A DNA stretch of 64,000 nt, taken from NCBI GenBank assembly GCA_041660565.1, contig JBAZWC010000001.1, forward strand, positions 366,481 to 430,480, in the 5' to 3' direction. Made by a program: the position numbers and the translations under genes. The stretch's first letter is position 1. Every line of letters starts with the position of its first letter. Shown piece by piece: positions 29,092 to 49,356 of the stretch. The DNA comes from Patescibacteria group bacterium. Lineage in GTDB: Bacteria; Patescibacteriota; UBA1384; CAJBMM01. Below the pieces are notes generated by a model, which saw only the letters and a list, made by a program, of their open reading frames with translations, was not told where the DNA came from and made no database searches.

Positions 29092-29724
29092 CTAGTCGTG
29101 GCCCTGCGGGCACGGCCTGAGCTTATCTTCCGAGAAGAAGCTGAAGGGGTCCCCCCAGTTTCGGTTGTTATCGCAACACTTGGTGTCAACGTGGTACGCC
29201 ACGCGGTAAGTCGCGGGGTAAATGGCGTCGTAGTGATACATGTAAGGCGGAATGCCATCCCACACGAGCACGTAATGCCTAGGGATAACCGCCGAGTTGA
29301 GCGCCCAGGTCAGGTGCGAGTTGAAGTAGTGAGTCGTACCGTCGTAGCTGGCGTTCGATGTATCCCATTCCCACCCGTAGGTCATGGCGTGAGTAGCCCA
29401 GGTTATGGACTGTTGCCACAGTATGTTGCCAACTGCGTCGTAAACACCTCCGGAGCCGTACACTTCGTTCCACGGGATAGTGCCGGCGGAATCGGTGTAG
29501 AAGATGTAACACGGGTGAATGGTGAAGTCGGCCTCGGCTGACCCATTGCTTGTCGGCATTCCGCTCCACACGATGTTGTACGAGACGATATCAGTGGTGT
29601 TGTTGTAGGCCACATCCCACTGAATCGTGATGTCGTCAACGGATACGTATCCCGGTGTTGCCGATACGGGGAGCTGGGCAAACATGACGACCAGGGCCGC
29701 CAGCAAAACGAGATGCTTACGCAA
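29092..29724 (-). CDS. Secreted W/Y/N/T-rich protein, paralogue A2 (about 210 aa)
   Basis: Signal peptide, TTG start, C-terminus …RPCPQGHD. Shares a roughly 290-nt conserved upstream leader with A1. Confidence 0.65.
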   Translation of the reverse strand: MRKHLVLLAALVVMFAQLPVSATPGYVSVDDITIQWDVAYNNTTDIVSYNIVWSGMPTSNGSAEADFTIHPCYIFYTDSAGTIPWNEVYGSGGVYDAVGNILWQQSITWATHAMTYGWEWDTSNASYDGTTHYFNSHLTWALNSAVIPRHYVLVWDGIPPYMYHYDAIYPATYRVAYHVDTKCCDNNRNWGDPFSFFSEDKLRPCPQGHD

Positions 29725-30045
29725 TTTCTTCTCCTAGCCCTCAAACCACGGGGGCGGGGTCGGTACTGCACCGAGTGTACGGCATACAGCGCCCGACTTG
29801 GCTAGTCTTACGGCTTCACGACAATAGGCATTTCCCCCTTGATTCCGACCGGACCAAAACCACTACCGGTCTTTTGGAAACCACTCCTGTGTGGAATCCA
29901 CTAGATAAGTAAGTTGTTCAGGTTCGGTGCTGTAATACACACAAAAAGTATAATAACACATCCATATTATTTATGTCAATATATTATAAGCGGGAGGCAG
30001 CCCGAAGGCCGCCTCCCGTGTGAGACAGATGTTGCCGGTTGGCCC

Positions 30046-30546
30046 TTAGGGGGCAATCCATGCAGTCGTCGCGGACGTGGCGGTAGCACCGTCACCCTTC
30101 ACGTACACCTTCAGGGTGACGAGTATGTACTTGTACGGCCACGGGACGTAGTAGGTGATGTCCCTATACGATTGGAAGCTCGGCCGACCCTCGTCGTAAT
30201 CGGCGTAGTCCTGCCAGATGATGTTGCCGTTCTCGAAGGCCTGCGCTCCGGCCGTCTGACCGGAGGCAGAGCAGCTCCCCTTGAGGTCGCAGGTGATGCC
30301 TCCAGAAGTACCTATCCACAACCCGCTCTGCCACGCGTAGACAACAGAGTATGTCGCCGTGGCGTAGCTGTCGTTCTCGTCGTGCCCGACGCCCTTGAGA
30401 TATCCGGAACCGACCGTGAACGTCCCGGTACCGGTGGTGCTGGTGATGACCGGGGTGGTCTGGGTCATCACCCAATCAGCCATCGAGGAGACGGACAGCG
30501 ACATCAGCGCGCAGATCGCAACGAACAGCATGGTTAGACGCTTCAT
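30046..30546 (-). CDS. Secreted Gly/Thr/Tyr-rich protein, paralogue B1 (start at MKRLTMLFVAICALMSL…)
   Basis: Signal peptide. Shared motifs GNDENDSYATATY, WQDYADYD and WPYKYxLVTLKVYVKG with 30805-31308. Confidence 0.6.
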   Translation of the reverse strand: MKRLTMLFVAICALMSLSVSSMADWVMTQTTPVITSTTGTGTFTVGSGYLKGVGHDENDSYATATYSVVYAWQSGLWIGTSGGITCDLKGSCSASGQTAGAQAFENGNIIWQDYADYDEGRPSFQSYRDITYYVPWPYKYILVTLKVYVKGDGATATSATTAWIAP

Positions 30547-30804
30547 TGCTTGGCTCCTGTGTGGTTTGATACAACTGAGCGGGGTCGTTTTGTCTCTGCT
30601 GGGGGCATACGACCACAATGTACGTCACCTGGCTTGGCTGGACTAATATCGATTAGCCATCACCTCCTTTAGGAGTTGCGCAAGCCCGACTCCTTTTTGA
30701 TTGCGATACGACTGAACTTGTCGAACCGCCAGCATATCAACAGTTGGCGACTTGCGCGGGCTACAGGGTACCCACATTATGTGGTTATCGGCTTATGCGC
30801 CAAC

Positions 30805-31308
30805 TCAGTACGTTAACGCTGCGGCGTATGCGGTAGTGCCAGTGCCCTTCACGTACACCTTCAGGGTGACGAGCACGTACTTGTACGGCCACATGACGTA
30901 GTAGCCGTAGTTTTCCGCCGAGTCGTAGGACGTCGGCCCGTCGTCGTAATCGGCGTAGTCCTGCCAAACAATGTTGCCGTTCTGGAAGACCTGCGACCCC
31001 GCCGTCTGTCCAGCCGATGAGGATTGCCCACTGACTATACCCCTGATTCCCCCATTGAAGCCTAACGGTAAACCAGGGCCAACCCACGAGTAGACGACAG
31101 CGTACGTCGCCGTGGCGTAGCTGTCATTCTCATCATTGCCGGTGCCCGATAGTGAGTTGACGCCAGCCACGAAAGTGCCGGTCCCGGTAATCGAGTTGAT
31201 GGTAACAGGACCCTCGAACATCACCCAACCGGCAGGGACAGCCATGGAGGCGACGGACAGCGACATCAGTGCGCAGAAAGCGACGAGCAGCACAGTGAGA
31301 CGCTTCAT
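30805..31308 (-). CDS. Secreted Gly/Thr/Tyr-rich protein, paralogue B2
   Basis: MKRLTVLLVAFCALMSLSVASMA signal. Paralogous to 30046-30546. Confidence 0.6.
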   Translation of the reverse strand: MKRLTVLLVAFCALMSLSVASMAVPAGWVMFEGPVTINSITGTGTFVAGVNSLSGTGNDENDSYATATYAVVYSWVGPGLPLGFNGGIRGIVSGQSSSAGQTAGSQVFQNGNIVWQDYADYDDGPTSYDSAENYGYYVMWPYKYVLVTLKVYVKGTGTTAYAAALTY

Positions 31309-31520
31309 TGCTTGGCTCCTTTTTGATTGCGATACGACTGAGCGTTACGACCGTAAAACACCTGGGTACGCAACAGGATCTTCGAGACCAGCTGTATTCC
31401 CCTTGCGATTCCTGTCAGTAATGGACTAAGTAGGTTGTTCAGGTTCAGCGCTGTAAAACACAATCAATATATTAACACATCCATATTATTCGTGTCAACA
31501 TCCGATGCAACAATAAGTAT

Positions 31521-32849: not shown

Positions 32850-32925
32850 GAGACTGTTCTCAACGTCCCCTGCCTTGGTTTTGGGATGGGTTTAGTGTAT
32901 AAAGATACCGAGGGGGAAGACAGCG

Positions 32926-33453
32926 ATGGAATACTACGTTGGTGTGCCTCTGCCCCAACCGCTCGACTACTACATCCACGTGGTTAGACGCACGTGGGGG
33001 TGCCGAAACAAAAGCGACCCGCATTTGACCTTGATGGTGCCGCGGAGTCTGTTACCAAACCGGACTGAGCGTGAGCTAACCACAGCGCTGGCCGGAATTG
33101 CTGCTCAGCCACTGGTATTTGAGGTTTCGATTAACGGTTTTGGGGTGTTTGAGGAAATCGGCAACCTTCATCTGGTTGTGGATCGTAGCGACCAGTTGGT
33201 GGCTTGCTGCAAGGCCATCGATCATGCGGTTGAGGGGATTTTGGCACCTTCGGCGTCTAAGTACGCCCATATCCCCAGCCCACACATCACCGTACTAGAC
33301 AGGCTACCACAAAAAGACCTTGCTTTGGCATTGGCACAGCTTGGCCCGTACAAGTTTGGGCCAACCCACCTTCAATGCAGCACACTCCACCTATTCAAAG
33401 ATGGCAACTCGACCATCGGCTGGCAGATAGCCCAGACCATCAGACTCAGCTAA
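32926..33453 (+). CDS. 2H phosphoesterase (LigT/ThpR-like RNA 2',3'-cyclic phosphodiesterase), high GC
   Basis: Two H-x-T-x motifs (PHLTLMVP and PHITVLD) about 85 aa apart. Confidence 0.65.
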   Translation: MEYYVGVPLPQPLDYYIHVVRRTWGCRNKSDPHLTLMVPRSLLPNRTERELTTALAGIAAQPLVFEVSINGFGVFEEIGNLHLVVDRSDQLVACCKAIDHAVEGILAPSASKYAHIPSPHITVLDRLPQKDLALALAQLGPYKFGPTHLQCSTLHLFKDGNSTIGWQIAQTIRLS

Positions 33454-33534
33454 ACCCGCCCGGTTAACGCCGCGGCGGGTTCAACTTATATAAAAAAGAG
33501 GGCGGCCGCGACATGCGCGAACGCCCTACTCCCC

Positions 33535-34257
33535 CTAGAACTTGACCTCGAGTGATGTGGTGATGGTGTCATTGATGCACCCGGAAGAGCTACCGACGCT
33601 CTTCTGCAGTGCAATCTCGGGCACCAACGTCACCTTGCCCGCGGCAATCGGCCGCTTGATGATCAGCCGAAGGTGGCTGACCAGCTCGGGCTGGGCGCCA
33701 AACGCGCCATCGTTCCCCCCGGCGGACAACTCCAGATTGCATCCCTTGATGGAGCTTTTGACTCCCACCCGCCAGAACATCCCGCCCTCCAGGATGTTGG
33801 GGCTGTCGGGTACGCAGCTGTCGACCGAGATAAACGGTCGCACCAGCCCGCGATTCGCCGTTAGAGACGTGGTCAGGTCGTGCACGTCACCCCGCCAGTG
33901 CCCCACCGGCATTAGGTCGAAGAAGCAATATTCGACATTGACATTGGCCTGTCCGCGCCAGATGTTGCTGGCATAGCCGACGCCGTAGTCGATTTCCGAC
34001 GCCCAGTCTCGGTTCCAGCCCGACCGGGTGGGGACGCATCCCCACACATAGGCGTAGAACGGGCCCTTGGCGGCGGTGGCCATCCCCTGCACCACCGGCT
34101 TGTTGTAGATGACGTTCCCGGTCACACTGCCGGTGTACTGGCTGCGCCACTTGATCATGTACGACATCTGCTGGGCATCGGACGTGCGGGCCAAGCCCAG
34201 AGACATCAGAATGACTACGACCATCGCCCTGCAATGCATTGCCGTCTCCTTATGCAA
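33535..34257 (-). CDS. Secreted protein with outer-membrane beta-barrel-like features (MipA/OmpV-like composition, C-terminal Phe), high GC
   Basis: Signal peptide. Alternating aromatic/hydrophilic beta-strand pattern. Terminal …SLEVKF. Start probably at the internal MHCRAMVVVILMSLGLA. Confidence 0.45.
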   Translation of the reverse strand: MHKETAMHCRAMVVVILMSLGLARTSDAQQMSYMIKWRSQYTGSVTGNVIYNKPVVQGMATAAKGPFYAYVWGCVPTRSGWNRDWASEIDYGVGYASNIWRGQANVNVEYCFFDLMPVGHWRGDVHDLTTSLTANRGLVRPFISVDSCVPDSPNILEGGMFWRVGVKSSIKGCNLELSAGGNDGAFGAQPELVSHLRLIIKRPIAAGKVTLVPEIALQKSVGSSSGCINDTITTSLEVKF

Positions 34258-34376
34258 TCGCTGTAGATATCTGACTTGTCGTTAGCATTTTATAATACTT
34301 GAGCTTGTTTGTCAATATCATTGCTCTAAATACTCTAATCTATTACAATAAACTGACTAATAACTTTGGAGCGGCA

Positions 34377-37060: not shown

Positions 37061-37708
37061 CTACAAAGCCGAGAACGGTAAGACCGAAATTAAAGTATTA
37101 TCATAATACATCTTGAGCTCGTACTTTCCGGTGGTTAAACTTTCCGGCTCGCAGCTGGTATTTCCACCAGTTAGTGTGGAGTGAACCGCCGTTACTTTAT
37201 CTACCACATTGGTTTTGGTGGCTAAACTATAAATTGCCATGGCAATATGGCCACTTTCAATTGTTCGCCTGGCGGTCATGTTAACGCAAAACTGATCTGT
37301 CGTAAAATTAAAAGTGGTTGTTTTGGTGGTGTTATTTGGGCCAACTTGTTCTCCAACTGCTAATTTTGATAAATATGATGAAGACAAATATTGATTAAAC
37401 ATATCTAAGTTAGGTTGCTCCGATAGCACCACCGGCGTTGCAGTAGGACTAGGACTACTAGACGAGGAAGACGTTGTAGTGGTTGAATTATTACTCAAAA
37501 ACCACCACACTCCACCACCGAAAATCACTAATAATAAAACCACAATCACAATCCACAAAATGGCGTTACTTTTCTTTGGTTGTTCTTCCAAAATACCCTC
37601 CTTGTTGCTTCCCTTTAATGGTACCATCAACAATATTGCCGAGCAACATCGCAACTGGATTATTTTTGCGATTGAGTAGTGTTGCCACTGCAGGTGGATG
37701 GGGACCAA
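37061..37708 (-). CDS. Hypothetical membrane-anchored Ser-rich secreted protein
   Basis: TM (ILWIVIVVLLLVIFGGGVWWFL), Ser/Thr linker, beta-rich C-terminal domain. Start uncertain. Confidence 0.4.
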   Translation of the reverse strand: MVPIHLQWQHYSIAKIIQLRCCSAILLMVPLKGSNKEGILEEQPKKSNAILWIVIVVLLLVIFGGGVWWFLSNNSTTTTSSSSSSPSPTATPVVLSEQPNLDMFNQYLSSSYLSKLAVGEQVGPNNTTKTTTFNFTTDQFCVNMTARRTIESGHIAMAIYSLATKTNVVDKVTAVHSTLTGGNTSCEPESLTTGKYELKMYYDNTLISVLPFSAL

Positions 37709-38478
37709 AAACCAAGTTGTTTTGATTTTGCATCGCTCTGAGCAGATTTGAATTGAGATTGATATTTATATTTTTGACTAAAATAAGTGTATTCGTGCGC
37801 GTAGCCGTTTGCAATCATCCATTCATTGTAAAGCGTGCCATCAGGTAAAAAGACGTACCTAAGCAACCGATCATACTTATCCCAATCGCCTTCTATCGGA
37901 TCATATTCCAGCCTGACAGTTTGGTGTGATAGCAACTCTTTGCCTTTATCCGAAGCCTCGCGCCCAAAACATTGCACCGGCTTGCGTGGGTCTAGCACCT
38001 CTGGCGTATCCATCCCAATCAACCGCACCGAAATTTTACTGCCGTTTACATCAATCACAACCGTGTCGCCATCCACTACCTGATCGATTTTGGTTGATGT
38101 CTGCTCGGACAATATTTTAACAATCAGTTGTTTTGAGGCGGTGTTACGATTATTTTGCGGATAAAGTAAGCGATAACTGGCTAAATCGCCAATTTTATTC
38201 AGATATTTTTCGGATACAAAAGTAACTGCCCCTACACCGATAATTACGATGAGCACCGAGATCCAAGCCCGCTTAAAATGCTTGAACAATGACCATGCCA
38301 ACATAAAAATGATCGTTAAACAAAGCAGATATTGGACCACAATATCGGCTTGGGTTGTTGGATATGCGGCGGCGATAATTACTAACGCCCAGCAAATTAG
38401 TTTGATCAGCTTAATAAACTGGCTATCGCCACGCTTAAACCAAAGCATTCGAACTAGATTAGAAATATTATTTTTCAT
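37660..38478 (-). CDS. Membrane-anchored thermonuclease (staphylococcal-nuclease/SNase-fold) protein
   Basis: Two N-terminal TM helices then DGDTVVIDVNGSKISVRLIGMDTPE…YDRLLRYVF…ANGYA (SNase catalytic pattern). Confidence 0.8.
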   Translation of the reverse strand: MKNNISNLVRMLWFKRGDSQFIKLIKLICWALVIIAAAYPTTQADIVVQYLLCLTIIFMLAWSLFKHFKRAWISVLIVIIGVGAVTFVSEKYLNKIGDLASYRLLYPQNNRNTASKQLIVKILSEQTSTKIDQVVDGDTVVIDVNGSKISVRLIGMDTPEVLDPRKPVQCFGREASDKGKELLSHQTVRLEYDPIEGDWDKYDRLLRYVFLPDGTLYNEWMIANGYAHEYTYFSQKYKYQSQFKSAQSDAKSKQLGFWSPSTCSGNTTQSQK

Positions 38479-38526
38479 TCGCTCTAATAATACTTTAATC
38501 CTTTATCGTTTTTTGACAAATAATTA

Positions 38527-38556
38527 GGGCGGGCACGGCATTCGCCACACCCGCCC
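38527..38556 (-). terminator. GC hairpin GGGCGGG…CCCGCCC within a 43-nt sequence identical to 39513-39556
   Basis: acaaataattagggcgggcacggcattcgccacacccgccca duplicated 3' of both alpha-CTD-like genes. Confidence 0.55.
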
Positions 38557-38567
38557 ACCGCGAGGAA

Positions 38568-39395
38568 CTATCGGAACTTCTGGGGCACGTTCTCGGCGTC
38601 CGCTAGCCGATAACCGTTCTCGCCCAACCTCTGTACCACCTCGCTGTAATCGCTCCGGTTGAAGCCACGAATCGTTGATAACGCGGCCGGGGTGCACGCA
38701 GCCAGCTGCAGAATGGTTAGAATACCCGACTTCTGTAGCAAGCCACAGGTACGAGCAGGAAAGCCGAGCTCGATGATCCGCCTGATAGTGTCGAGACGCT
38801 CGCTCTTGCGGTGTACTTGATCGTCAACGCCGTCGATCTCCCACACTAGCCTACGGGCATCGTGACCCGCCTTACCGAGCAGCCGAGACAGCCGACTCAC
38901 CCGCCCGTGAAGATTGGCGTTCACATCCATGACGCTTTTTGTCCGAGCAGAGAAGCCAACCACCTCCTCGGCCACCCGACCGTCCATGAACAGCGAGATG
39001 GCGGTAGTTGACGCCACTCTTCCCAATTGCTGGGCCAGAGCGGTGCGCAATAACAGGTCGGCGCGCATGGCAGAAAATGCCCGCTCATCCTGCAACACCA
39101 GCTTCGCCCGATCTTGTCCTCTCTCGCTGGTCAACCAGTCCCAGAAGAAGCGATAAAAGCTCTGATCGATCTCTGTCCGGCGCAAGAGAATGTCAAAGCT
39201 GACCGCTTTGTGTTCACGCTCGTGGTAGAACGTCCGCGCATCCTTGACCGTTGCCGACGCGATGATGGCGTCCATCAGAAGATCGTAGTTTGGCCAGCAA
39301 TGCGACAACCAGAACTGCTTCGCCTCGGGCAGCACATCCGGAATCAGCTCCCACAACCGCTTCAGGTTGTTAAACGTATTTCTTTGCCCCGCCAT
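38568..39395 (-). CDS. Hypothetical protein with C-terminal RNA-polymerase alpha-subunit CTD-like (HhH) domain, high GC
   Basis: C-terminal ARTCGLLQKSGILTILQLAACTPAALSTIRGFNRSDYSEVVQRLGENGYRL resembles alpha-CTD (…SVRSxNCLKxxGIxTVGDLVxxSExELLKIPNFGKKSxxEIxxxL). GAGGAGGG Shine-Dalgarno. Confidence 0.6.
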   Translation of the reverse strand: MAGQRNTFNNLKRLWELIPDVLPEAKQFWLSHCWPNYDLLMDAIIASATVKDARTFYHEREHKAVSFDILLRRTEIDQSFYRFFWDWLTSERGQDRAKLVLQDERAFSAMRADLLLRTALAQQLGRVASTTAISLFMDGRVAEEVVGFSARTKSVMDVNANLHGRVSRLSRLLGKAGHDARRLVWEIDGVDDQVHRKSERLDTIRRIIELGFPARTCGLLQKSGILTILQLAACTPAALSTIRGFNRSDYSEVVQRLGENGYRLADAENVPQKFR

Positions 39396-39471
39396 CGCTC
39401 GCCCTCCTCAGGGTCTCGTGTTATTCATGTTCGAGACGCAAAGAACAATGCTGCGCCAACGTAATGCGCTG

Positions 39472-39500
39472 ATTATATCATTATCGTTATGTATCGTCAA
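39472..39500 (-). promoter_or_regulatory. Consensus promoter TTGACG-17-TATAAT for 38568-39395
   Basis: Minus-strand -35 at 39495-39500, -10 at 39472-39477. Confidence 0.55.
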
Positions 39501-39525
39501 TATTTGTTTTATTTACAAATAATTA

Positions 39526-39555
39526 GGGCGGGCACGGCATTCGCCACACCCGCCC
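39526..39555 (-). terminator. GC hairpin terminator, identical copy of 38527-38556
   Basis: Identical 43-nt block. Confidence 0.55.
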
Positions 39556-39568
39556 ACTTGCGGGAAGA

Positions 39569-39985
39569 CTACCAGAAATCCTTTGGCAACACATCGGCTT
39601 CGGCCAACTTAACGCCGAGAATCTCCAACTTCTGCAGAACCTCGTAGTAGCCTTTTTTCCCGAAGTTGCGAACAGATGCCAGCTCGGACGGAGTCAACTC
39701 AACCAAGTCAGCAACGGTTAATATGTTAGCCCTCGCGAGTGACTTAAAAGGCCTGACCGAGAGACCAAGATCCCCAATCCATATATGGAGAATCGCTTGA
39801 GGAGTCTGAGCATCCGTGTCAGCGGCACCGCCCGCTAGAAATCGCTCCAGATCCCTTCCCTTCAGCTTTTCCTTGAAAAGGCTGACCAGCCGAAGGTTCT
39901 GCACCCTCAGCCGGCGATTCTCCTCTAGAACAGCTTGGCACTGCTCAAAGGAGACCAGCCCCTCCGAAGACTCTGTATCCACCAT
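39569..39985 (-). CDS. Small protein (138 aa) with C-terminal RNA-polymerase alpha-CTD-like domain, high GC
   Basis: LSVRPFKSLARANILTVADLVELTPSELASVRNFGKKGYYEVLQKLEILGVKL is alpha-CTD-like. C-terminal tail LAEADVLPKDFW parallels LADAENVPQKFR of its neighbour. Confidence 0.6.
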   Translation of the reverse strand: MVDTESSEGLVSFEQCQAVLEENRRLRVQNLRLVSLFKEKLKGRDLERFLAGGAADTDAQTPQAILHIWIGDLGLSVRPFKSLARANILTVADLVELTPSELASVRNFGKKGYYEVLQKLEILGVKLAEADVLPKDFW

Positions 39986-40036
39986 CGTCTAACCCTCCTT
40001 AGGGGGTATATTGTCGTGTACAAATCCAATACACAA

Positions 40037-40065
40037 ATTCTAACATTATTTTTATTCATTGTCAA
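40037..40065 (-). promoter_or_regulatory. Consensus promoter TTGACA-17-TAGAAT for 39569-39985
   Basis: Minus-strand -35 at 40060-40065, -10 at 40037-40042. AAGGAGGG Shine-Dalgarno before the ATG. Confidence 0.55.
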
Positions 40066-40194
40066 TGTTTTTTGACAAATATATTTTTCAGCTATAATTA
40101 ATTTATGGATCAGTTAGTTGGTTGATCGGTTACTTTGATTATCACCCACAATATCCCATCATAAATATGAATAGATTTTTTATTATCGGGAGGA

Positions 40195-41403
40195 ATGATG
40201 AGGAACGTAAAAACAAAAGGAATTTTACCAATCTTTATCGCGCTCATTGTGGTTGGGGCGCTTGGGCTAAGCGCCGCCGGGTATGAGGGCGTTACTTACT
40301 ACCAATCCAAAAAACTGGTTGAAGCAGGTGATAAATTAATGAATGATGGGCTGTATGCCGAAGCGCTGGCAAAATATGAAATGGCGGGCAATAAATTTAA
40401 ACCGGGCAAAAGCAAAATTGACTCCAAAATTTCAAATGCTCGTGAACTGTTGACTCAAGATGATACATATAAGCAAGGCACAGCCAGTTATAACAAGCAG
40501 GAGTGGCAAAAATGTTTAGATTATTTCAAGCTTGTAACCGATAAATATCCGCAATACAAGGCGGCTCAGGTACGTTATTCCGAATGTCAGAAAAAACTGG
40601 CAGATGCGCAAACCGCAGCCGCAAGCTCGACAGCACAGCCCAGCCCAACTCCAACATCAACTCCTTCAACTACAAGAAAACGAAGTACCAGTAGTCCTTC
40701 AGCCAGTTCTAGCTCATCCTCCGGAGAATCTACTACTTCATCAAATAACAACTCTTCCAGTTCATCCAGCTCATCAAATGAAGTAGCTTCCAGTTCCCCA
40801 AGTAGCCAAACCCAAACAAGACCGGTCTTATATCTACCTTACTCCGGAACCAGCCCGGACAGACTATCTCCAATGGGCGAAACGGTTTTTCACCCCAAAC
40901 CACAAAATCCTACCGGACATCATGGCATTGATTTTATCTGGTTAGATACTCCGGGAAATGTTGGCATTATCGCCTCAATGGACGGGGTGGTTACGGCCAT
41001 AAACGCCAACACATCCCATGCTGGCGCGTGGGATGTGCTAACCAGGAGCGGAACATATGGCGTTGATTATACCGAAATGGGTAGCATAAGAAGCGGACTA
41101 AAGGTTGGTGATTCAGTTAAGGTTGGTGATTCAGTTGGTTATGCATACCACGATGCAAACAACGTTGACCAGCCAAATTACAAAATGATCCACTGGCAAT
41201 TCGGCAACCAATCAGAAGACCCGGCAAACCATCCCGGCGTCACAACTTGCCTTTGTCCTTTATCATATTTTGCTAGCAGCGCCTTATCAGCAATTAACAC
41301 TCTTTGGGCAAACAGCGACTGGAGCGGGACCGAAGTAAATGGTGAACCGGTGGATTTGAAGGCAAACTCTCCATATATCTGTAGCGGTAGTTACGCGCAA
41401 TAA
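40195..41403 (+). CDS. Secreted membrane-anchored protein with Ser-rich linker and degenerate M23/LytM peptidase-like domain
   Basis: N-terminal TM. HHGIDFIWLD…GNVGIIASMDGVV…GDSVKVGDSVGY resembles an M23 core, but the terminal HxH motif is replaced by HWQF. Confidence 0.55.
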   Translation: MMRNVKTKGILPIFIALIVVGALGLSAAGYEGVTYYQSKKLVEAGDKLMNDGLYAEALAKYEMAGNKFKPGKSKIDSKISNARELLTQDDTYKQGTASYNKQEWQKCLDYFKLVTDKYPQYKAAQVRYSECQKKLADAQTAAASSTAQPSPTPTSTPSTTRKRSTSSPSASSSSSSGESTTSSNNNSSSSSSSSNEVASSSPSSQTQTRPVLYLPYSGTSPDRLSPMGETVFHPKPQNPTGHHGIDFIWLDTPGNVGIIASMDGVVTAINANTSHAGAWDVLTRSGTYGVDYTEMGSIRSGLKVGDSVKVGDSVGYAYHDANNVDQPNYKMIHWQFGNQSEDPANHPGVTTCLCPLSYFASSALSAINTLWANSDWSGTEVNGEPVDLKANSPYICSGSYAQ

Positions 41404-41413
41404 TGATTTTACG

Positions 41414-42259
41414 ATGGATAAAACGCTGGAGGAAAATACGAACGATCAAAATCAAAACAAAAAACCGATTTGGCGATATCTTAGATGGGTTTTACTAGCT
41501 TTTGCAATACTGGTCGTTGGCGTTTTGATTTTTCTGTATTGCTACTATTACATCTGGATGAAAATGAGTACTACTATGGTTACTAACGCCGAAAACGCGC
41601 TTGCCAACGGCATTAGTATAAATGATGAGCGAGACGATTTTGTGATAATGAGCTCGAACAAAGAAGAACTAAACGCCGAAGACAATCCTTCACCGTATCG
41701 GCTGGATTATTTTGACATAAAATCGGTATCGGTAGGTGCAGATGATCAATATCTTTATATCAAGACGACATTTTTTGGTACAATTCCAAAAACCAGCCAA
41801 AAAGTAAACGGTGATAATATTGTCGCCATTGCAGCCAAAGCCGAGATTACCGACGACCAGGGTAAGGAATATCTAGGCATGGCAGCAGATTTTGGTTACG
41901 TTGCGATTATTGGCATTCCGGCGTTAAACACCTACTATTCTTACGGCGCCACCGGCATTGAATGGCCAGAGAATGCGCGCTACACCCATCAAGACAGAGA
42001 CAGTAAGGTCTATGGGGGAGGTGGCACTGATTATATTATGGGAGCATACCCGCTTAACAAAATGGGCCTAGAAATGGGGCAAACAATCAACATTCGCTTC
42101 CCAATGGAAGTCAGAAGCCATAAATTTACCCACGCAGCCGTGGATGTGCTAGCCGGATCAGGTAAATCACCGGGAATAGTAACGTGGAAATTAGGCTCGA
42201 ATCAGTACACCATCAATAATAATACTGATAACTCAGCTCAATCTAACGACAAAAAATGA
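41414..42259 (+). CDS. Hypothetical membrane-anchored protein
   Basis: Single N-terminal TM, beta-rich ectodomain. No recognisable motif. Confidence 0.45.
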   Translation: MDKTLEENTNDQNQNKKPIWRYLRWVLLAFAILVVGVLIFLYCYYYIWMKMSTTMVTNAENALANGISINDERDDFVIMSSNKEELNAEDNPSPYRLDYFDIKSVSVGADDQYLYIKTTFFGTIPKTSQKVNGDNIVAIAAKAEITDDQGKEYLGMAADFGYVAIIGIPALNTYYSYGATGIEWPENARYTHQDRDSKVYGGGGTDYIMGAYPLNKMGLEMGQTINIRFPMEVRSHKFTHAAVDVLAGSGKSPGIVTWKLGSNQYTINNNTDNSAQSNDKK

Positions 42260-42275
42260 TGAGTTAAGGAGAGAA

Positions 42276-42896
42276 ATGAACAAAATTGATCTAAAAAAGA
42301 ATTTGAAGGATTTATACAATCCTAAAACCAACGTAATTGCCGAAGTTTTGGTGCCAAAAATGAACTTTTTAATGGTAGATGGTAAGGGTGATCCAAATAC
42401 ATCAAAGGAATTTGTAAATGCCATAGAAGCGTTGTACCCGGTGGCATATACGATAAAATTTGATATCAAAAAAAATCTAGGCAAAGATTATGGGGTAATG
42501 CCACTTGAAGGGCTGTGGTGGTCAAGTGATCTGAGTGATTTTGCCACCGGTAAAAAAGATAACTGGTTCTGGACGTTAATGATAATGCAACCCGAATTTG
42601 TAACCAAAGACCTGTTTGAAAAAGCGCTAGAGAGCGTAAAAGCCAAAAAGCACCCAGCATTCATTGATAAAGTGCGCTTTGAATCGTTTGAAGAGGGCAA
42701 ATCGGCACAGCTGATGCACATTGGCCCGTTTGCCGCCGAAGGGCCAAATATCCAAAAAATCCACGACTATATAAAAGAAGCAGGTGGAAAGTTTGATGGC
42801 ATGAAGCAGAAACATCATGAAATCTACCTGTCGGATATGCGTAAAACCGCACCAGACAAGCTCAAAACCATCCTCCGCCAAGCTTTTGTGAAATAG
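42276..42896 (+). CDS. GyrI-like small-molecule-binding domain protein
   Basis: …GVMPLEGLWWSSD…WFWTLMIMQPEFV…HHEIYLSDMRKTAPDKLKTILRQ is the conserved pattern of the GyrI-like/AraC-effector-binding family. Confidence 0.65.
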   Translation: MNKIDLKKNLKDLYNPKTNVIAEVLVPKMNFLMVDGKGDPNTSKEFVNAIEALYPVAYTIKFDIKKNLGKDYGVMPLEGLWWSSDLSDFATGKKDNWFWTLMIMQPEFVTKDLFEKALESVKAKKHPAFIDKVRFESFEEGKSAQLMHIGPFAAEGPNIQKIHDYIKEAGGKFDGMKQKHHEIYLSDMRKTAPDKLKTILRQAFVK

Positions 42897-43314: not shown

Positions 43315-43346
43315 TAATTGAGTGCTACTCGGTTTAATGAAAGTGC

Positions 43347-43394
43347 CGCGCCGGACAAGCTCAAAACCATCCTCCGCCAAGCTTTTGTGAAATA
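43347..43394. repeat. Direct repeat of the last 45 nt of gene 42276-42896 (…gacaagctcaaaaccatcctccgccaagcttttgtgaaatag)
   Basis: Near-exact duplicate of 42852-42896 including the stop codon. Confidence 0.7.
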
Positions 43395-43414
43395 GCGGTA
43401 ATTATCTTCTCTTA

Positions 43415-44663: not shown

Positions 44664-44738
44664 TGGCTCCCCGGGTCAGATTCGAACTGACGACCAACTC
44701 GTTAACAGCGAGCTGCGCTACCGCTGCGCTACCGGGGA
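44664..44738 (-). tRNA. tRNA-Asn (anticodon GTT), CCA encoded, with a hairpin+T-run terminator just downstream (about 44620-44650)
   Basis: Reverse complement TCCCCGGTAGCGCAGCGGTAGCGCAGCTCGCTGTTAACGAGTTGGTCGTCAGTTCGAATCTGACCCGGGGAGCCA. Confidence 0.85.
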
Positions 44739-45377: not shown

Positions 45378-45405
45378 TTGACATATTTGAACAATACGCT
45401 ATAAT
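45378..45405 (+). promoter_or_regulatory. Consensus promoter TTGACA-16-TATAAT
   Basis: -35 at 45378-45383, -10 at 45400-45405, before a GGGAG Shine-Dalgarno and the ATG at 45439. Confidence 0.55.
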
Positions 45406-45438
45406 ATTATCTATCACAGCTCTTCACGGGAGTTTTCC

Positions 45439-45795
45439 ATGATGGTCATGAAGCAGGTGCCTGAGGACAGGCAGCGGGTCCAATATTGGAGCCGGTCACT
45501 TCTTGTCCTTGGGTCGTATGTGCTGATAGGGTGGGCGTGGAGTTGGTGGGTTGCCATTGCAGCGCTGCTCATCATGTCAGTTGCGGTGGAAGGGCAGCTC
45601 AAGAATGTGAATGGCGTGGCGGTTCGGCGAACAATGGCTGAGATGATGGCGTCAAGAAGCCGATATGTCGGTGGCCTGATCGTGGCTCTCGTCGCAGGCG
45701 TTGCTTCGATAGCCACTGGGCACATCGCGATTGGGGCTCTGTGGCTCATCATCGTCGCCTGCGCCCACTTTCCCGTACCATGCTTTCGCACGTGA
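45439..45795 (+). CDS. Small high-GC integral membrane protein (cassette 1)
   Basis: 3-4 TM helices. Chosen over the antisense ORF 45414-45791 on the basis of promoter, Shine-Dalgarno and terminator orientation. Confidence 0.5.
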   Translation: MMVMKQVPEDRQRVQYWSRSLLVLGSYVLIGWAWSWWVAIAALLIMSVAVEGQLKNVNGVAVRRTMAEMMASRSRYVGGLIVALVAGVASIATGHIAIGALWLIIVACAHFPVPCFRT

Positions 45796-45802
45796 TGCCA
45801 AC

Positions 45803-45850
45803 TAGGGCGTTTCCGCAGAACATCGCGGAGGCGCCCTAACTTTTTATTTT
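45803..45850 (+). terminator. Rho-independent terminator (tagggcg…cgcccta + T-run). 36-nt core identical to 46428-46463
   Basis: gggcgtttccgcagaacatcgcggaggcgccctaac followed by tttttatttt. Confidence 0.7.
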
Positions 45851-45870
45851 GAATTTGACGAAATTCACTA

Positions 45871-45899
45871 TTGACTATTACGCAACAGTATGATATAAT
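45871..45899 (+). promoter_or_regulatory. Consensus promoter TTGACT-17-TATAAT
   Basis: -35 at 45871-45876, -10 at 45894-45899. AGGAGG Shine-Dalgarno before the ATG at 46006. Confidence 0.55.
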
Positions 45900-46005
45900 A
45901 CTGTTGTTTTGTAATTTAATAACATATTTATAAGCACAGCGTTGTGTATATCCGTTTGGGTGTGCAGATCGCTGTGTTTATCTACATGGTAAATAGGAGG
46001 AAACC

Positions 46006-46416
46006 ATGGCACGCAGACCAACTCTCGACGAGTTGCGCCAGTTGGCAACTTGGGGGGACATCAGCCACGTGGTTGACCGCTGGTATCGCGGACACCAAGT
46101 ACCTCCCGAAGTGATGGAGGCGGTGCAGGTGGGGTACTACGCGATGGCGCGGAACTGGCTCAAGTCGATGCTGCCGGCAAAGATGTATCGTCGCATCACA
46201 CCGGGCGAACAATACCCGGCCTACCAGTCAGTCGAGACCCGGAACGGACGAGTCCAGATCGGGTCGTACTCGCTGGGACAGCGGCTGACCGCAGCGCGGC
46301 GCTGGGCCACCAAGGCCAAGTTGCCGCTGGAAAAGATCGCGGCAGATTACGGCCTGACTCACTTGCTCGCGGTAACACCCGAGCCTGAGCCAGATCCGAT
46401 CCCGCGCGGCTCATAG
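46006..46416 (+). CDS. Hypothetical high-GC protein (cassette 2)
   Basis: 136 aa with Pro/Glu-rich C-terminus. Strong Shine-Dalgarno and promoter. No recognisable motif. Confidence 0.5.
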   Translation: MARRPTLDELRQLATWGDISHVVDRWYRGHQVPPEVMEAVQVGYYAMARNWLKSMLPAKMYRRITPGEQYPAYQSVETRNGRVQIGSYSLGQRLTAARRWATKAKLPLEKIAADYGLTHLLAVTPEPEPDPIPRGS

Positions 46417-46427
46417 CATTCCATCGC

Positions 46428-46470
46428 AGGGCGTTTCCGCAGAACATCGCGGAGGCGCCCTAACTTTTAT
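46428..46470 (+). terminator. Rho-independent terminator, duplicate of 45803-45850
   Basis: Identical 36-nt hairpin core followed by a T-run. Confidence 0.7.
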
Positions 46471-46554
46471 CTGATTAAAAAAATAAGACCATCAACGGTC
46501 TTTTTTTAGTAACTACCTTATGTCATAAAACTATCACAAAAATAAAGGAGGAAT

Positions 46555-46890
46555 ATGGCGAATATCGTCAATAAATCATTCACAGAGTCAAACGAAAATG
46601 TGACACCGGAAAAAACCAGGGTTGAAACGGCAACGTTAATTGATCACGAATTTCAACGCGTTACCGCTGAACCAGGTTGGCAATGGTCAAAACATTCAAA
46701 ACCGGTGGTTGGCGGCAAAAGCTGCCAAAAACATCATTTGCTCTATATTATTTCAGGTAGAATTGCATCAAGAATGTCCGATGGAGATGAGGTAGAGTTT
46801 GGCCCGGGTGAAATTGGGATTATCCCTCCCGGCCATGATGGCTGGACAGTTGGAGACGAACCGGCAGTCTGGCTCGAAATCCCCCACTAA
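46555..46890 (+). CDS. Cupin-domain protein (host-like GC)
   Basis: …HHLLYIISGRIASRMSDGDEVEFGPGEIGIIPPGHDGWTV… (cupin 2 beta-barrel motifs). AAAGGAGGAA Shine-Dalgarno. Confidence 0.6.
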   Translation: MANIVNKSFTESNENVTPEKTRVETATLIDHEFQRVTAEPGWQWSKHSKPVVGGKSCQKHHLLYIISGRIASRMSDGDEVEFGPGEIGIIPPGHDGWTVGDEPAVWLEIPH

Positions 46891-46953
46891 TTATTAAAAG
46901 AATAGGCCCCGACGCATTGCGCGCCGGGGCCTTTGGGCTGGGTATGGGCTGGA

Positions 46954-48513
46954 TTAGCTGGCGGACTTCTGCTCCACCTCGGTCAACGCGATCACCTGTA
47001 GCAGCCGCCCGAGGAGCAACTCCATCTTGGGATCGTTCGGAGCCTTTCGAGTCTCCGACGCGATCTTGAGCAGATCAGTGGTGGCCAACTTAAGTGCTTC
47101 CAAGTCGCCGGCGTTTGATGCCTGGGCCACCTTGTCAACACCCGCGAGCCTGTCCTGTTCAATCTGCGCATACTCGGCAACTGCCTCGCCATAGACGCGG
47201 GCATAGCCGAGCGTACACAGCATTCGCGACAGCCCCTCGCCAGCGGTGATCGGATGCTGCCCGAGCAGCGCCAGCACATTCACGGGCTCAGAAACCGGGG
47301 TCGGTTCGGGCTCAACCGGTGCCGGTGTGTCCGGCATCGGTTCGGGCTGCGGCGGCAGGTCGGGCTGGGTCTTCGTGGTTAGCGCCGCAATCTCTGCCTT
47401 TGCCTTTTCCGACAGTCGGCAGTGATACCGAATGTGGGACAACGCCTCGGTCTTCTCCAGCAGTCCGTTCTGGATCGCAACCCGAAGGAAACTGCCGGTA
47501 GCTCCATCCGACAGTCCAAGCTGTCCGGAAACAACCTTCCCGGCGTCGCCCGCTTGGGTACCGTCCGCGTGAGTAGCCTTCTTCGCGATCTCTTCGAGAA
47601 CGAGCAGCATCCAGCCGTACTCGTCGGTGCCCTGGACGAAGTACTTGCTGACGATGCCCTTGTTCGGCCTTGCCGGGGTAGGCGATGCGGGTAACTCGGG
47701 AACTGCCGGTGGCGGGACTAACACCTTCCCTTCATCGGTCAGCTTGTAGCCGATGACCGCTGGTGGCATCCCCTCAGCCACGGCTTCAAGCAGCTTGGCA
47801 TCCGCCAACATCGACAGCGCCGTCTCGGCATCGAGATACGACAAGGACTGGAACTCAGTCCGAACCCCCTCTGTGCAGGCCTGGGTCGCAAGAAATGCCC
47901 CGTTGCTGCACATACTCGAGATGTACCCCAGAATCCGAACCACGTGGCCATCGGTGGAGTCGATCAGCCCGTGGAACCACACCCTGTCGAACTCCGCCTT
48001 AGCATTCCTCCTCACTTCCTCATCCTCCTTGGCAGCAAGTAGCTGCCTGACAGCTTCACGCCTTTCGACGATCATCTCCTCGTGGTGACTGGCGCGCTTC
48101 TGGTCTTCGGCCAGAAACATCTCGTTGGCGCACTCACACGCCATGAGCAGAACGCGGTCAATGTGATTCTTGTCCAATGCGCAGCAGCTGGCCGGGAAAT
48201 CGACCCACCACTGCATGCACGTGTCTGTGCCTCCAGGCTGGAACATCAACTTGAACCGCTTGTTCTTATCGAGCCCCTTACCGACAATCTTCACTCCTCG
48301 ATCTGCCCTAGACCCCTGCTTCTTCCTGCAGAAACTGGCGTCGATCGTCAGATCGGCATCACCAAACGGGTCTGCGCAAACCGGTGCCACAATTGCAGCA
48401 AAGCTCTCCAGAAGTTTCTGGATTACTTGAGGCACCTGGTCTTCACCGGGCAAACCGGCGCCACGATGGCTGGAGTTACGCACAACCCGTGCGCAAATCT
48501 GTGGTACGGCCAT
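46954..48513 (-). CDS. Hypothetical 519-aa high-GC protein (Cys-rich N-terminal region, Pro-rich linker), possibly of plasmid or phage origin
   Basis: Long ORF with TTGACT-17-TATAAA promoter and GAGGGGG Shine-Dalgarno upstream (48514-48590). No recognisable motif. Confidence 0.55.
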   Translation of the reverse strand: MAVPQICARVVRNSSHRGAGLPGEDQVPQVIQKLLESFAAIVAPVCADPFGDADLTIDASFCRKKQGSRADRGVKIVGKGLDKNKRFKLMFQPGGTDTCMQWWVDFPASCCALDKNHIDRVLLMACECANEMFLAEDQKRASHHEEMIVERREAVRQLLAAKEDEEVRRNAKAEFDRVWFHGLIDSTDGHVVRILGYISSMCSNGAFLATQACTEGVRTEFQSLSYLDAETALSMLADAKLLEAVAEGMPPAVIGYKLTDEGKVLVPPPAVPELPASPTPARPNKGIVSKYFVQGTDEYGWMLLVLEEIAKKATHADGTQAGDAGKVVSGQLGLSDGATGSFLRVAIQNGLLEKTEALSHIRYHCRLSEKAKAEIAALTTKTQPDLPPQPEPMPDTPAPVEPEPTPVSEPVNVLALLGQHPITAGEGLSRMLCTLGYARVYGEAVAEYAQIEQDRLAGVDKVAQASNAGDLEALKLATTDLLKIASETRKAPNDPKMELLLGRLLQVIALTEVEQKSAS

Positions 48514-48654
48514 TAGTTATCCCCCTCTCTCGGTTATTCAAGATCTTAGTGAATACTTTATATCATATTTTTATATCAAAGTCAATAGAAAACCGTGAGT
48601 GACTGTCATTCCGGTCCGCCAGCTGGCGGATGACCCAGAACCCATGCTTTCTTG

Positions 48655-48745
48655 GTGTCATTCCGGGCTTGATTGTTCTGCTAAGAACTAACGACTCCAG
48701 CCGCAAGGCAGTGAGGAGTATCCGGAATCTATGTAAAAGATTATT
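48655..48745. repeat. GTCATTCCGG…TCCGGAATCTATG palindromic element (copy of 24255-24345)
   Basis: About 88% identity to 24255-24345. Adjacent partial unit at 48600-48650 shares ccgccagctggcggatg with 43946-43966. Confidence 0.65.
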
Positions 48746-48868
48746 AAGGATATCTAGAGATCTCGCAATGGATTCCATTTCCCATTCTCTATCTACCATC
48801 CTCCAACAAAGAAAGACGCCCGGCGGTCTCGCCGCAAGGCGTCTAGTTATGACGACGATGGTTCGTCA

Positions 48869-49078
48869 TCACTTAGTTCCGTAGATCCCCGGAAACGGGG
48901 TCATAACACGGTCCTGGGGGCGGTTCAGCCTCATGATGCGTACGTCCGCCGATTCTGCCCGACCAATCGCCTGACGTCTCTCCTCATCGGTATTTGCGGC
49001 CTCTAGATCGGCTATCAGCTTCCCACCCGCCTCCGTCCCGTAGGCGCCAATAGTCCACCGTTTTTGCTCCTCAGTCAT
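48869..49078 (-). CDS. Hypothetical small protein (high-GC mini-operon, gene 3)
   Basis: Start overlaps the stop of 49075-49356 (ATGA-type overlap). Confidence 0.35.
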   Translation of the reverse strand: MTEEQKRWTIGAYGTEAGGKLIADLEAANTDEERRQAIGRAESADVRIMRLNRPQDRVMTPFPGIYGTK

Positions 49079-49356
49079 GCCACTACCTCCTTTTCGAGAT
49101 TCATGTCATCCCGCTCCAGACGTTTCCGGACAAAGCCCCGGATGCTGCGCGGTCCGTAGTACCCTCGGTCATCCTCGTCCTTGACGAATGGACAGACAAA
49201 CAGTTCGTCCATCGTCGACGGACAGGTAACCAACTCAAACTCTAGCCCCGGGACTTTCTTCATTTCGCTCATCGCCTCGTCGTTATCCGCTCCATCAGTT
49301 ATGACAAAGAGCGAAACCCCTAGTTTTTGGTCGCTCATTGCTGCATTACCTCCCAT
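49075..49356 (-). CDS. Hypothetical small protein with vWA-like LFVITDGADNDE segment (possible fragment)
   Basis: 93 aa. Motif resembles the vWA TDG loop. Possibly a gene remnant. Confidence 0.35.
   Translation of the reverse strand: MGGNAAMSDQKLGVSLFVITDGADNDEAMSEMKKVPGLEFELVTCPSTMDELFVCPFVKDEDDRGYYGPRSIRGFVRKRLERDDMNLEKEVVA

What the first reader, a model, noticed from the sequence alone, without database searches (positions are those of the whole stretch)
38511..40130. Two adjacent high-GC proteins ending in RNA-polymerase alpha-CTD-like domains, each with a consensus promoter and an identical 43-nt terminator block
Both C-termini (…LSVRPFKSLARANILTVADLVELTPSELASVRNFGKKGYYEVLQKL… and …ARTCGLLQKSGILTILQLAACTPAALSTIRGFNRSDYSEVVQRL…) resemble the helix-hairpin-helix alpha-CTD that contacts UP elements and activators. 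They share a C-terminal tail (LAEADVLPKDFW and LADAENVPQKFR). Free alpha-CTD-like proteins could act as decoys or transcription modulators, possibly phage- or host-derived. The duplicated promoter, Shine-Dalgarno and terminator modules show they were installed as expression cassettes.
Basis: partly seen in the sequence, partly recalled or inferred. Interest (0 to 1): 0.7.

Follow-up and report, generated by a model that had tools for sequence, protein, structure and literature searches.

The report
Two acquired RNA-polymerase alpha-CTD-domain genes
Two neighbouring, foreign-looking genes in a Saccharibacteria (Patescibacteria) chromosome each encode an otherwise orphan protein ending in the DNA/activator-contacting domain of the RNA polymerase alpha subunit; the domain call is solid and already in GenBank, and their function is unknown.

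Summary
On the minus strand, geneA (38568-39395, 275 aa) and geneB (39569-39985, 138 aa) each have a near-consensus sigma-70 promoter (11/12 plus TG), a GGAGGG ribosome site and the same 43-nt terminator block. GC3 is 0.71 and 0.62, against 0.35-0.45 in backbone genes. Both C-termini pass Pfam's own threshold for PF03118 (62 and 26.8 bits; cut-off 23.8) and are paralogous (37% over 68 aa). Neither is RpoA: there is no alpha N-terminal domain. Upstream of the alpha-CTD neither has a detectable relative among 1.84 billion representative proteins. GeneB keeps the E. coli DNA-binding residues R265, G296, K297 and K298; geneA keeps only R265.

The cassette anatomy is not special to these genes. The window holds many high-GC, mostly orphan genes with their own promoters and terminators, and two other adjacent sets also share a terminator. 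An exact 15-mer flanks the two-gene module. I read them as horizontally acquired, moron-like units encoding accessory alpha-CTD-fold proteins. GeneB is probably a minor-groove A/T-DNA binder or transcription modulator; that step is inferred.

GenBank already names both "alpha C-terminal domain-containing protein", and non-RpoA alpha-CTD proteins are common. This is a new member of a known kind, of modest interest.

The parts
38508..38522 (+). Left copy of the exact 15-mer GTTTTTTGACAAATA that flanks the two-gene module
   Evidence: The exact 15-mer occurs only at 38508 and 40067 in the 64-kb window.
38516..38558 (-). Terminator block copy 1 downstream of geneA (hairpin 38527-38556 plus U-rich tail)
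   Evidence: 13-bp stem and 4-nt loop. The G.U pairs form only in the minus-strand RNA.
38568..39395 (-). geneA, 275 aa: orphan all-helical N-terminal region (about residues 1-200) plus a degenerate alpha-CTD (residues 205-258)
   Evidence: PF03118 26.8 bits against a cut-off of 23.8. Only self hits in the 5.8-billion database. No hit to the N-terminal part among 1.84 billion representatives. GC3 is 0.714.
39402..39409 (-). Shine-Dalgarno GAGGAGGG of geneA, 6 nt before the ATG
   Evidence: Read directly from the sequence.
39472..39500 (-). geneA promoter TTGACG-17-TATAAT with TG extension
   Evidence: 11/12.
39507..39521 (+). Degenerate (12/15) internal copy of the 15-mer at the junction between the two cassettes
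39515..39557 (-). Terminator block copy 2 downstream of geneB (hairpin 39526-39555). Its A/T-rich tail lies just upstream of geneA's -35 hexamer.
39569..39985 (-). geneB, 138 aa: N-terminal helix (about 13-40), low-confidence acidic linker (47-59), alpha-CTD (63-121) with R78, G109, K110 and K111 at E. coli positions R265, G296, K297 and K298
   Evidence: PF03118 62 bits. PDB RpoA alpha-CTDs at E = 4e-10. Alignment to the verified E. coli alpha-CTD. AF2 secondary structure.
39993..40000 (-). Shine-Dalgarno AAGGAGGG of geneB, 7 nt before the ATG
   Evidence: Read directly from the sequence.
40037..40065 (-). geneB promoter TTGACA-17-TAGAAT with TG extension
   Evidence: 11/12.
40067..40081 (+). 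Right copy of the exact 15-mer. It overlaps the TTGACA (40072-40077) upstream of the + strand M23-peptidase gene (40195-41403).

Best explanation
GeneA and geneB are a tandem pair of horizontally acquired, self-contained transcription units (promoter, ribosome site, gene, intrinsic terminator). They sit in the divergent intergenic region between a backbone nuclease gene and an M23-peptidase gene of a Saccharibacteria chromosome.

They descend from one ancestral cassette. The C-terminal 140 residues and the promoters are homologous. The 43-nt terminator was kept or re-copied identically, most likely by gene conversion. They encode accessory proteins, not RNA polymerase subunits, built on the alpha-CTD helix-hairpin-helix fold.

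GeneB is a 'mini-alpha tail': helix, flexible linker and an alpha-CTD with the minor-groove DNA-binding residues intact. It most likely binds A/T-rich, UP-element-like DNA, alone or as an oligomer. By occupying such sites, or by occupying proteins that normally dock on alpha-CTD, it would modulate transcription. GeneA has lost most DNA-contact residues and carries an extra orphan helical domain. It more likely uses its alpha-CTD as a protein-contact module, possibly partnering geneB through the homologous helix that precedes the domain.

Shown: gene structure, expression signals, foreign composition, domain identity, paralogy, residue conservation and orphan status. Inferred: DNA binding, oligomerisation, effect on transcription and mode of acquisition.
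For: Domain: PF03118 is above its gathering score for both proteins. NCBIfam rpoA models match only the C-terminal part. PDB RpoA alpha-CTDs match geneB at E = 4e-10.

Paralogy: 37% identity over 68 aa, E = 3e-13. All of geneB aligns to geneA residues 136-275 at 31%. The promoters are 22/29 identical.

DNA-contact residues: R265 is kept in both. G296, K297 and K298 are kept in geneB only.

Autonomy: promoters and terminators; hairpin strand asymmetry.

Foreignness: GC3 is 0.71 and 0.62 against 0.35-0.45, with only self hits in 5.8 billion proteins. Another high-GC gene in the window (GalT-like) has its closest named relatives in Armatimonadota at 57-61% identity.

Insertion signature: the exact 15-mer occurs only at 38508 and 40067.

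The same cassette style is seen elsewhere in the window.

Terminator re-copying: the flanking coding DNA is only 29-58% identical per 45-nt bin, next to a 100% identical block.
Against: There is no experimental or comparative evidence for function. No orthologue exists, so selection on the coding sequence cannot be measured.

AF2 models are of low confidence (pLDDT 60.7 and 41.7). The fold search gave nothing.

Heptad periodicity in geneB's N-terminal helix is weak (0.5 of a/d positions hydrophobic), so dimerisation is uncertain.

No empty-site relative was found to prove insertion: the best relatives are only 57-67% identical and not syntenic.

The 15-mer could instead mark the ends of a tandem-duplication unit.

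Confidence: 0.5

Rival explanations
1. The alpha-CTD here is only a generic helix-hairpin-helix nucleic-acid or protein-binding module. On this view the proteins serve a mobile-element or defence-related role, such as DNA recognition in a system whose other parts lie elsewhere, with no link to RNA polymerase or promoters.
For: Among 1.84 billion representatives, 3647 proteins match the alpha-CTD part. The top hits are non-RpoA proteins with 2-11 tandem alpha-CTD repeats in varied architectures. GeneB weakly matches the alpha-CTD-like segment of the BREX kinase PglW (NCBIfam E = 8e-5, PADLOC E = 3e-4). The genes lie in a region rich in acquired cassettes.
Against: No defence or mobile-element family matches either whole protein. 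The neighbours are housekeeping or backbone genes. The nuclease next door has relatives in other Saccharibacteria MAGs with no alpha-CTD gene beside it. GeneB retains precisely the RpoA DNA-contact residues.
Confidence: 0.25
2. The proteins are alpha-CTD mimics used in conflict. One version is decoys that absorb phage factors targeting alpha-CTD, for example ADP-ribosylation of R265 as T4 does (established knowledge). The other is effectors that the epibiont delivers to perturb transcription in its high-GC host.
For: R265 is conserved in both proteins even though geneA lost the other DNA contacts. Expression signals are strong and constitutive-looking. Divergence between the paralogues is high, as expected in arms races. 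Composition is high-GC.
Against: There is no secretion signal and no linked defence or secretion genes. The alpha-CTD is no closer to actinobacterial RpoA than to others. This rests on analogy alone.
Confidence: 0.08
3. The genes are functionless debris: fragments of a foreign rpoA 3' end fused to random sequence, carried along neutrally.
For: The N-terminal regions are orphans. GeneA's alpha-CTD is degenerate and barely above threshold.
Against: There are two intact ORFs of 275 and 138 codons with strong promoters, ribosome sites and terminators. The hydrophobic core and R265 are conserved across paralogues that are otherwise saturated at the DNA level.
Confidence: 0.07
4. The units are integron-type gene cassettes, and the shared hairpins are attC recombination sites.
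For: Adjacent cassettes share imperfect-palindrome blocks at their 3' ends. A short direct repeat flanks the module.
Against: The hairpins are plain 13-bp stems followed by U-tracts. They lack the RYYYAAC...GTTRRRY cores in the required order (read). Each cassette has its own promoter. No integrase was found among the roughly 28 window proteins scanned, but most window ORFs were not scanned.
Confidence: 0.03

Closest known systems
C-terminal domain of the bacterial RNA polymerase alpha subunit (RpoA alpha-CTD, Pfam PF03118; e.g. E. coli residues 249-329, PDB 1LB2/3K4G)
   Same: The helix-hairpin-helix domain is the same by sequence. GeneB keeps R265, G296, K297 and K298 and follows a flexible linker, as in RpoA.
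   Different: There is no alpha N-terminal assembly domain: rpoA equivalog models score 53 and 23 bits against cut-offs of at least 227. These proteins therefore cannot be core-enzyme subunits. E261 (the sigma region 4 contact) is Gly in both, and geneA lacks G296, K298 and S299.
Non-RpoA 'alpha C-terminal domain-containing proteins' in genome and metagenome annotation, including multi-repeat alpha-CTD proteins and a Bacillus phage Goe8 210-aa protein annotated as 'RNA polymerase subunit alpha'
   Same: They carry an alpha-CTD outside RpoA. GenBank gives both window proteins exactly this name.
   Different: The window proteins have a single alpha-CTD and unique N-terminal regions with no relatives. 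Per-domain scores to the best of these proteins (40-54 bits) are no better than to RpoA itself. No member of this loose class turned up as characterised in the literature library.
Phage 'morons' (independent promoter-gene-terminator units of deviant composition; Cumby, Davidson and Maxwell 2012, PMC3594210)
   Same: Each unit has its own sigma-70-type promoter, its own intrinsic terminator and a composition unlike its neighbours. The units are inserted between two unrelated genes.
   Different: The surroundings are chromosomal backbone genes, not a prophage. There are no PHROG or phage DNA matches.

Membership tests
PF03118 RNA_pol_A_CTD domain family | Profile match above Pfam's curated gathering score | tested here: met
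   GeneB 62.0 bits and geneA 26.8 bits, against a cut-off of 23.8.
PF03118 RNA_pol_A_CTD domain family | Compact helix-hairpin-helix fold of four to five short helices | tested here: inconclusive
   The geneB AF2 model has helices 62-72, 78-85, 91-95, 99-108 and 110-122, but pLDDT is only 60.7. Foldseek found no match. The geneA model is unusable (pLDDT 41.7).
PF03118 RNA_pol_A_CTD domain family | DNA-binding '265 determinant' (E. coli R265, N268, C269, G296, K298, S299) | tested here: inconclusive
   GeneB has R, K, S, G, K, G at these positions, so R265, G296 and K298 are kept. GeneA has R, G, L, N, S, D, so only R265 is kept. Binding itself was not tested.
RNA polymerase alpha subunit (RpoA) | N-terminal dimerisation and core-assembly domain, with a full-length match to rpoA equivalog models | tested here: not met
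   There is no Pfam hit to an alpha N-terminal domain. TIGR02027 scores 52.9 and 22.8 bits against a cut-off of 227.8, matching model positions 229-296 only.
Phage moron | Own promoter and own factor-independent terminator, with nucleotide composition different from the neighbours | tested here: met
Phage moron | Located inside a phage or prophage genome between phage genes | tested here: not met
   The neighbours are an SNase-domain nuclease, an ABC transporter and an M23 peptidase. There are no phage matches.
Integron gene cassette | attC site with inverse-core and core sequences, a promoterless ORF, and an IntI integrase with attI nearby | tested here: not met
   The hairpins are simple terminators without RYYYAAC/GTTRRRY cores. 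Each unit has its own promoter. No integrase was found among the roughly 28 window proteins scanned, but most window ORFs were not scanned.
BREX PglW | Roughly 1400-aa serine/threonine kinase with a full-length model match | tested here: not met
   Only a 77-residue local match to model positions 785-861, at 20.4 bits against a cut-off of 990.

The most novel reading that the evidence does not exclude
The alpha-CTD pair would be one instance of an undescribed way in which a naturally competent epibiont captures and keeps foreign genes. Foreign coding sequences would be fitted with native-style promoters and with a terminator block that is copied between neighbours. That block could act as a homology anchor for further capture or for concerted evolution. 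The alpha-CTD proteins themselves would be conflict proteins: mimics of the polymerase tail that divert host or phage factors, or UP-element occupancy.
Probability: 0.1. Interest if true: 0.7.

Novelty: new member of a known kind. Interest (0 to 1): 0.3.

Why it matters
Alpha-CTD is the part of bacterial RNA polymerase that reads UP elements and receives most class I activators. Free copies of it are therefore plausible natural modulators or decoys of transcription, and the non-RpoA alpha-CTD proteins found here appear to have no experimental characterisation. GeneB is a compact, testable example: 138 aa with intact DNA-contact residues and strong expression signals.

The cassette context also bears on how reduced, host-dependent Saccharibacteria take up and domesticate foreign genes. 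As it stands, however, the domain call is already in GenBank, and nothing here shows an unusual mechanism.

Tried and rejected
1. Homologue searches. The word-indexed searches returned only the proteins themselves. The exhaustive HMMER search found relatives of the alpha-CTD only and none for geneA positions 1-175 or geneB's N-terminus. No family alignment, covariation or selection analysis was therefore possible.

2. Structure. AF2 on geneA (2-row alignment) gave pLDDT 41.7 and on geneB (single sequence) 60.7. Foldseek against the PDB with the geneB model gave no meaningful match. GeneA was not searched.

3. Terminator block elsewhere. A degenerate hairpin pattern scanned against JGI metagenomes gave 26 unrelated GC-rich hairpins. 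None was this block, and the source contig was apparently not in that collection.

4. Empty-site or synteny comparison. The neighbouring nuclease, searched against GTDB genomes, gave 58 loci. The best are Saccharibacteria at 57-67% identity, with no conserved neighbourhood and no geneA or geneB.

5. Phage origin. There was no DNA match and no geneA protein match. GeneB hits were rpoA-like fragments plus one phage alpha-CTD protein. IMG/VR gave none and PHROGs none.

6. Plasmid origin. Only rpoA genes in records labelled as plasmids.

7. Known RNA motif in the shared block. No Rfam match.

8. Integron attC reading. Rejected on sequence features.

9. Second alpha-CTD or rpoA in the window. None.

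10. Weak similarity of geneA residues 24-77 to designed PPR repeats (E = 3e-4, with no individually significant stretch). Treated as a hint of helical-repeat character only.
Full report
**What is there**

The finding's interval holds two minus-strand ORFs. GeneA is at 38568-39395 (275 aa) and geneB at 39569-39985 (138 aa). They lie between two divergently oriented backbone genes: a membrane-anchored SNase-domain nuclease (37660-38478, -) and an M23-peptidase-like protein (40195-41403, +).

The window is chromosomal. It carries ClpB, exonuclease VII, ABC transporter genes, a sigma-70-like gene at 50360-51490 (judged from its translation; not run against Pfam), tmRNA and two tRNAs. GenBank assigns the two proteins to a Patescibacteria-group MAG on a 516-kb contig. 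The nuclease's nearest relatives are Saccharibacteria MAGs at 57-67% identity.

**Checking the observation**

- **Composition.** GeneA has GC 0.577 and GC3 0.714; geneB has GC 0.530 and GC3 0.619. Backbone genes have GC3 of 0.35-0.45.
- **Promoters.** Both score 11/12 with a TG extension: TTGACG-17-TATAAT at 39500..39472 and TTGACA-17-TAGAAT at 40065..40037. They share 22 of 29 positions, spacer included.
- **Ribosome sites.** Both genes have GGAGGG 6-7 nt before the ATG.
- **Terminator.** The shared block is exactly 43 nt (38516-38558 = 39515-39557) and occurs nowhere else in the window. It forms a 13-bp hairpin whose three G.U pairs exist only in the minus-strand transcript. The hairpin is followed by UAAUUAUUUG, as expected for an intrinsic terminator of these genes.
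- **Independent assembly.** A Logan assembly of run SRR18595301 gives contigs equal to window 39528-42884 and 38529-39544 at 100% identity. These break inside the repeat. The juxtaposition of low-GC backbone and high-GC geneB is therefore real.

**Domain identity**

Pfam PF03118 (RNA_pol_A_CTD) matches geneB residues 63-121 at 62 bits. It matches geneA residues 205-258 at 26.8 bits. Both exceed the curated cut-off of 23.8. GeneB matches solved RpoA alpha-CTDs at E = 4e-10 to 1e-7.

The two C-termini are 37% identical over 68 residues (E = 3e-13). All of geneB aligns to geneA residues 136-275 at 31%.

Neither protein is an alpha subunit. rpoA equivalog models match only model positions of about 229-296 and score far below their cut-offs.

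I verified the E. coli alpha-CTD sequence against the PDB and aligned it to both proteins. The E. coli residue roles below are established knowledge.

| E. coli residue | Role | geneB | geneA |
|---|---|---|---|
| R265 | key DNA contact | kept (R78) | kept (R215) |
| N268 | DNA contact | K | G |
| G296, K297, K298 | DNA contacts | kept (G109, K110, K111) | N246, R247, S248 |
| S299 | DNA contact | G | D249 |
| E261 | sigma region 4 contact | G | G |

**Orphan status**

The word-indexed search of 5.8 billion proteins returned only the proteins themselves. An exhaustive HMMER search of 1.84 billion representatives used a profile of both proteins. It gave 3647 hits, all confined to the alpha-CTD columns (about 190-277). 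Nothing matched geneA's first 175 positions or geneB's N-terminus.

The top hits are non-RpoA proteins with 2-11 tandem alpha-CTD repeats, one of them with a sigma-70 region 4. Per-domain scores to these (40-54 bits) are no higher than to RpoA itself. The window's alpha-CTDs are thus roughly equidistant from everything known.

AF2 predicts all-helical proteins at low confidence: geneB 60.7 and geneA 41.7. For geneB it gives a long helix at 13-40, a low-confidence acidic linker at 47-59, and five short helices. A fold search with that model was uninformative.

**The cassette anatomy is a property of the region, not of these genes**

The window is a mosaic. Backbone genes have GC3 of 0.35-0.45, while about twenty ORFs have GC3 of 0.56-0.83. 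These lie at 23.2-27.1, 28.0-31.4, 32.9-34.3, 38.6-40.0 and 45.4-50.2 kb. Two of the islands abut the tmRNA gene and one abuts tRNA-Asn. Most of these ORFs have no Pfam domain.

Many of them carry their own near-consensus promoter and hairpin terminator. Two further adjacent sets share a terminator:

- Three copies of GCGGGAGGCAGCC..GGCTGCCTCCCG at 28061, 29026 and 29985. They follow paralogous secreted proteins that are 50% identical, while 371 nt of upstream sequence is 90% identical.
- A 41-nt block, 100% identical, at 45804-45844 and 46428-46468. It follows two unrelated ORFs.

Loci from related Saccharibacteria show almost no such mosaic. One high-GC gene with recognisable relatives, a GalT-like gene at 24438-25511, has its closest named relatives in Armatimonadota at 57-61% identity. 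This fits acquisition from GC-richer bacteria.

**How the pair probably arose**

The exact 15-mer GTTTTTTGACAAATA occurs only at 38508 and 40067, bracketing the whole 1559-bp module (38523-40081). A 12/15 copy sits at the internal junction. The right-hand copy contains the TTGACA upstream of the M23 gene.

This is the footprint expected of one of two events: insertion into that intergenic region with duplication of the target, or unequal exchange between short repeats producing a tandem duplication.

Homologous promoters, ribosome sites and C-terminal halves argue that the two cassettes descend from one. The coding DNA, however, is only 29-58% identical per 45-nt bin, directly beside a 100% identical 43-nt block. 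The terminator must therefore have been re-copied recently by gene conversion. This matches what is seen at the other cassette sets.

The hairpins are ordinary terminators. They do not have integron attC cores, and no integrase was found among the roughly 28 window proteins scanned; most window ORFs were not scanned.

**Most likely function (inferred)**

GeneB reproduces the layout of the alpha subunit's tail: a helix, a flexible linker and an alpha-CTD with the DNA-contact residues intact. From what is established for alpha-CTD (minor-groove recognition of A/T-rich UP elements through R265, G296 and K298, and docking of activators), the best guess is an A/T-DNA-binding accessory protein. It could compete with, or mimic, the polymerase's own alpha-CTD at promoters or on regulators.

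GeneA has lost most DNA contacts and carries an orphan helical domain. It more plausibly uses its alpha-CTD for protein contacts. Its helix 139-175 has good heptad periodicity (0.8) and is homologous to geneB's N-terminal helix, so a geneA-geneB partnership is conceivable.

GeneB's terminator tail forms the A/T-rich stretch just upstream of geneA's -35 hexamer. This would allow feedback, but that is speculation.

**Rival readings**

Four alternatives remain open:

- a generic HhH module in a mobile or defence context, hinted at by a weak local match to the alpha-CTD-like part of BREX PglW;
- conflict decoys or effectors;
- neutral debris;
- integron-like cassettes.

The last two are poorly supported.

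**Comparison with what is known, and verdict**

The domain family is well known. GenBank already labels both proteins [quoted passage not shown]. Alpha-CTD outside RpoA is common, and at least one phage encodes such a protein. I found no paper in the library that characterises such proteins.

The anatomy resembles phage morons (PMC3594210) but is not in a prophage.

The finding is real and correctly interpreted at the domain level. It is a new member of a known kind with unknown function. The more unusual feature is regional: many foreign, orphan, autonomously expressed cassettes with terminators shared between neighbours in a Saccharibacteria chromosome.

Noticed in passing
window 23200-27100, 28000-31400, 32900-34260, 45400-50200: Many high-GC (GC3 0.56-0.83), mostly orphan ORFs are embedded in a backbone of about 42% GC, often with their own near-consensus promoters and hairpin terminators. 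Two islands flank the tmRNA gene (27123-27514) and one abuts tRNA-Asn (44664-44738). Loci from related Saccharibacteria show almost no such mosaic.
   Followed up: partly
window 28061-30044 (genes 28124-28753 and 29092-29724): Tandem paralogous secreted proteins are only 50% identical. Yet 371 nt of upstream and 5' sequence is 90% identical (a 207-nt core at 98%), and the same terminator hairpin occurs three times (28061, 29026, 29985). The flanks are more conserved than the coding sequence.
   Followed up: partly
window 30046-30618 and 30805-31308: A second tandem pair of high-GC secreted paralogues (62% identity) lies next to the first pair.
   Followed up: no
window 45804-45844 and 46428-46468: A 41-nt terminator block, 100% identical, follows two adjacent but unrelated high-GC ORFs (45439-45795 and 46006-46416). 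Their promoters score 12/12 and 11/12.
   Followed up: partly
window 42847-42896 and 43346-43395: A 50-nt direct repeat (96%) duplicates the 3' end of the GyrI-like gene, stop codon included, about 450 nt downstream. It looks like a remnant of a rearrangement.
   Followed up: no
window 24259-24343, 48656-48740, 49696-49751, 53406-53460: Dispersed intergenic repeats contain the palindrome TGTCATTCCGG...CCGGAATC (85-89% identity, both orientations), resembling REP- or MITE-like elements.
   Followed up: no
window 13886-13938, 14508-14551, 20218-20261: Short arrays of a 9-nt GTTAGGG/GTTGGGA-like unit occur in three intergenic regions.
   Followed up: no
window 24438-25511: A high-GC GalT/HIT-family gene is annotated as galactose-1-phosphate uridylyltransferase. 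Its closest named relatives are Armatimonadota at 57-61% identity, with unnamed metagenome proteins at 74%. This suggests cross-phylum transfer.
   Followed up: partly
L087 (Bacillus phage vB_BmeM-Goe8, MN043729.1) 1959-2591: A 210-aa phage protein annotated as 'RNA polymerase subunit alpha' carries an alpha-CTD-like segment, with a second match elsewhere in the record. This is a phage precedent for alpha-CTD outside RpoA.
   Followed up: no
window 860-4693 and 6161-12604: Two very large ORFs (1277 and 2147 aa) lie on the minus strand. The smaller has almost no Pfam annotation and the larger was not scanned. They are probably surface proteins of the epibiont.
   Followed up: no
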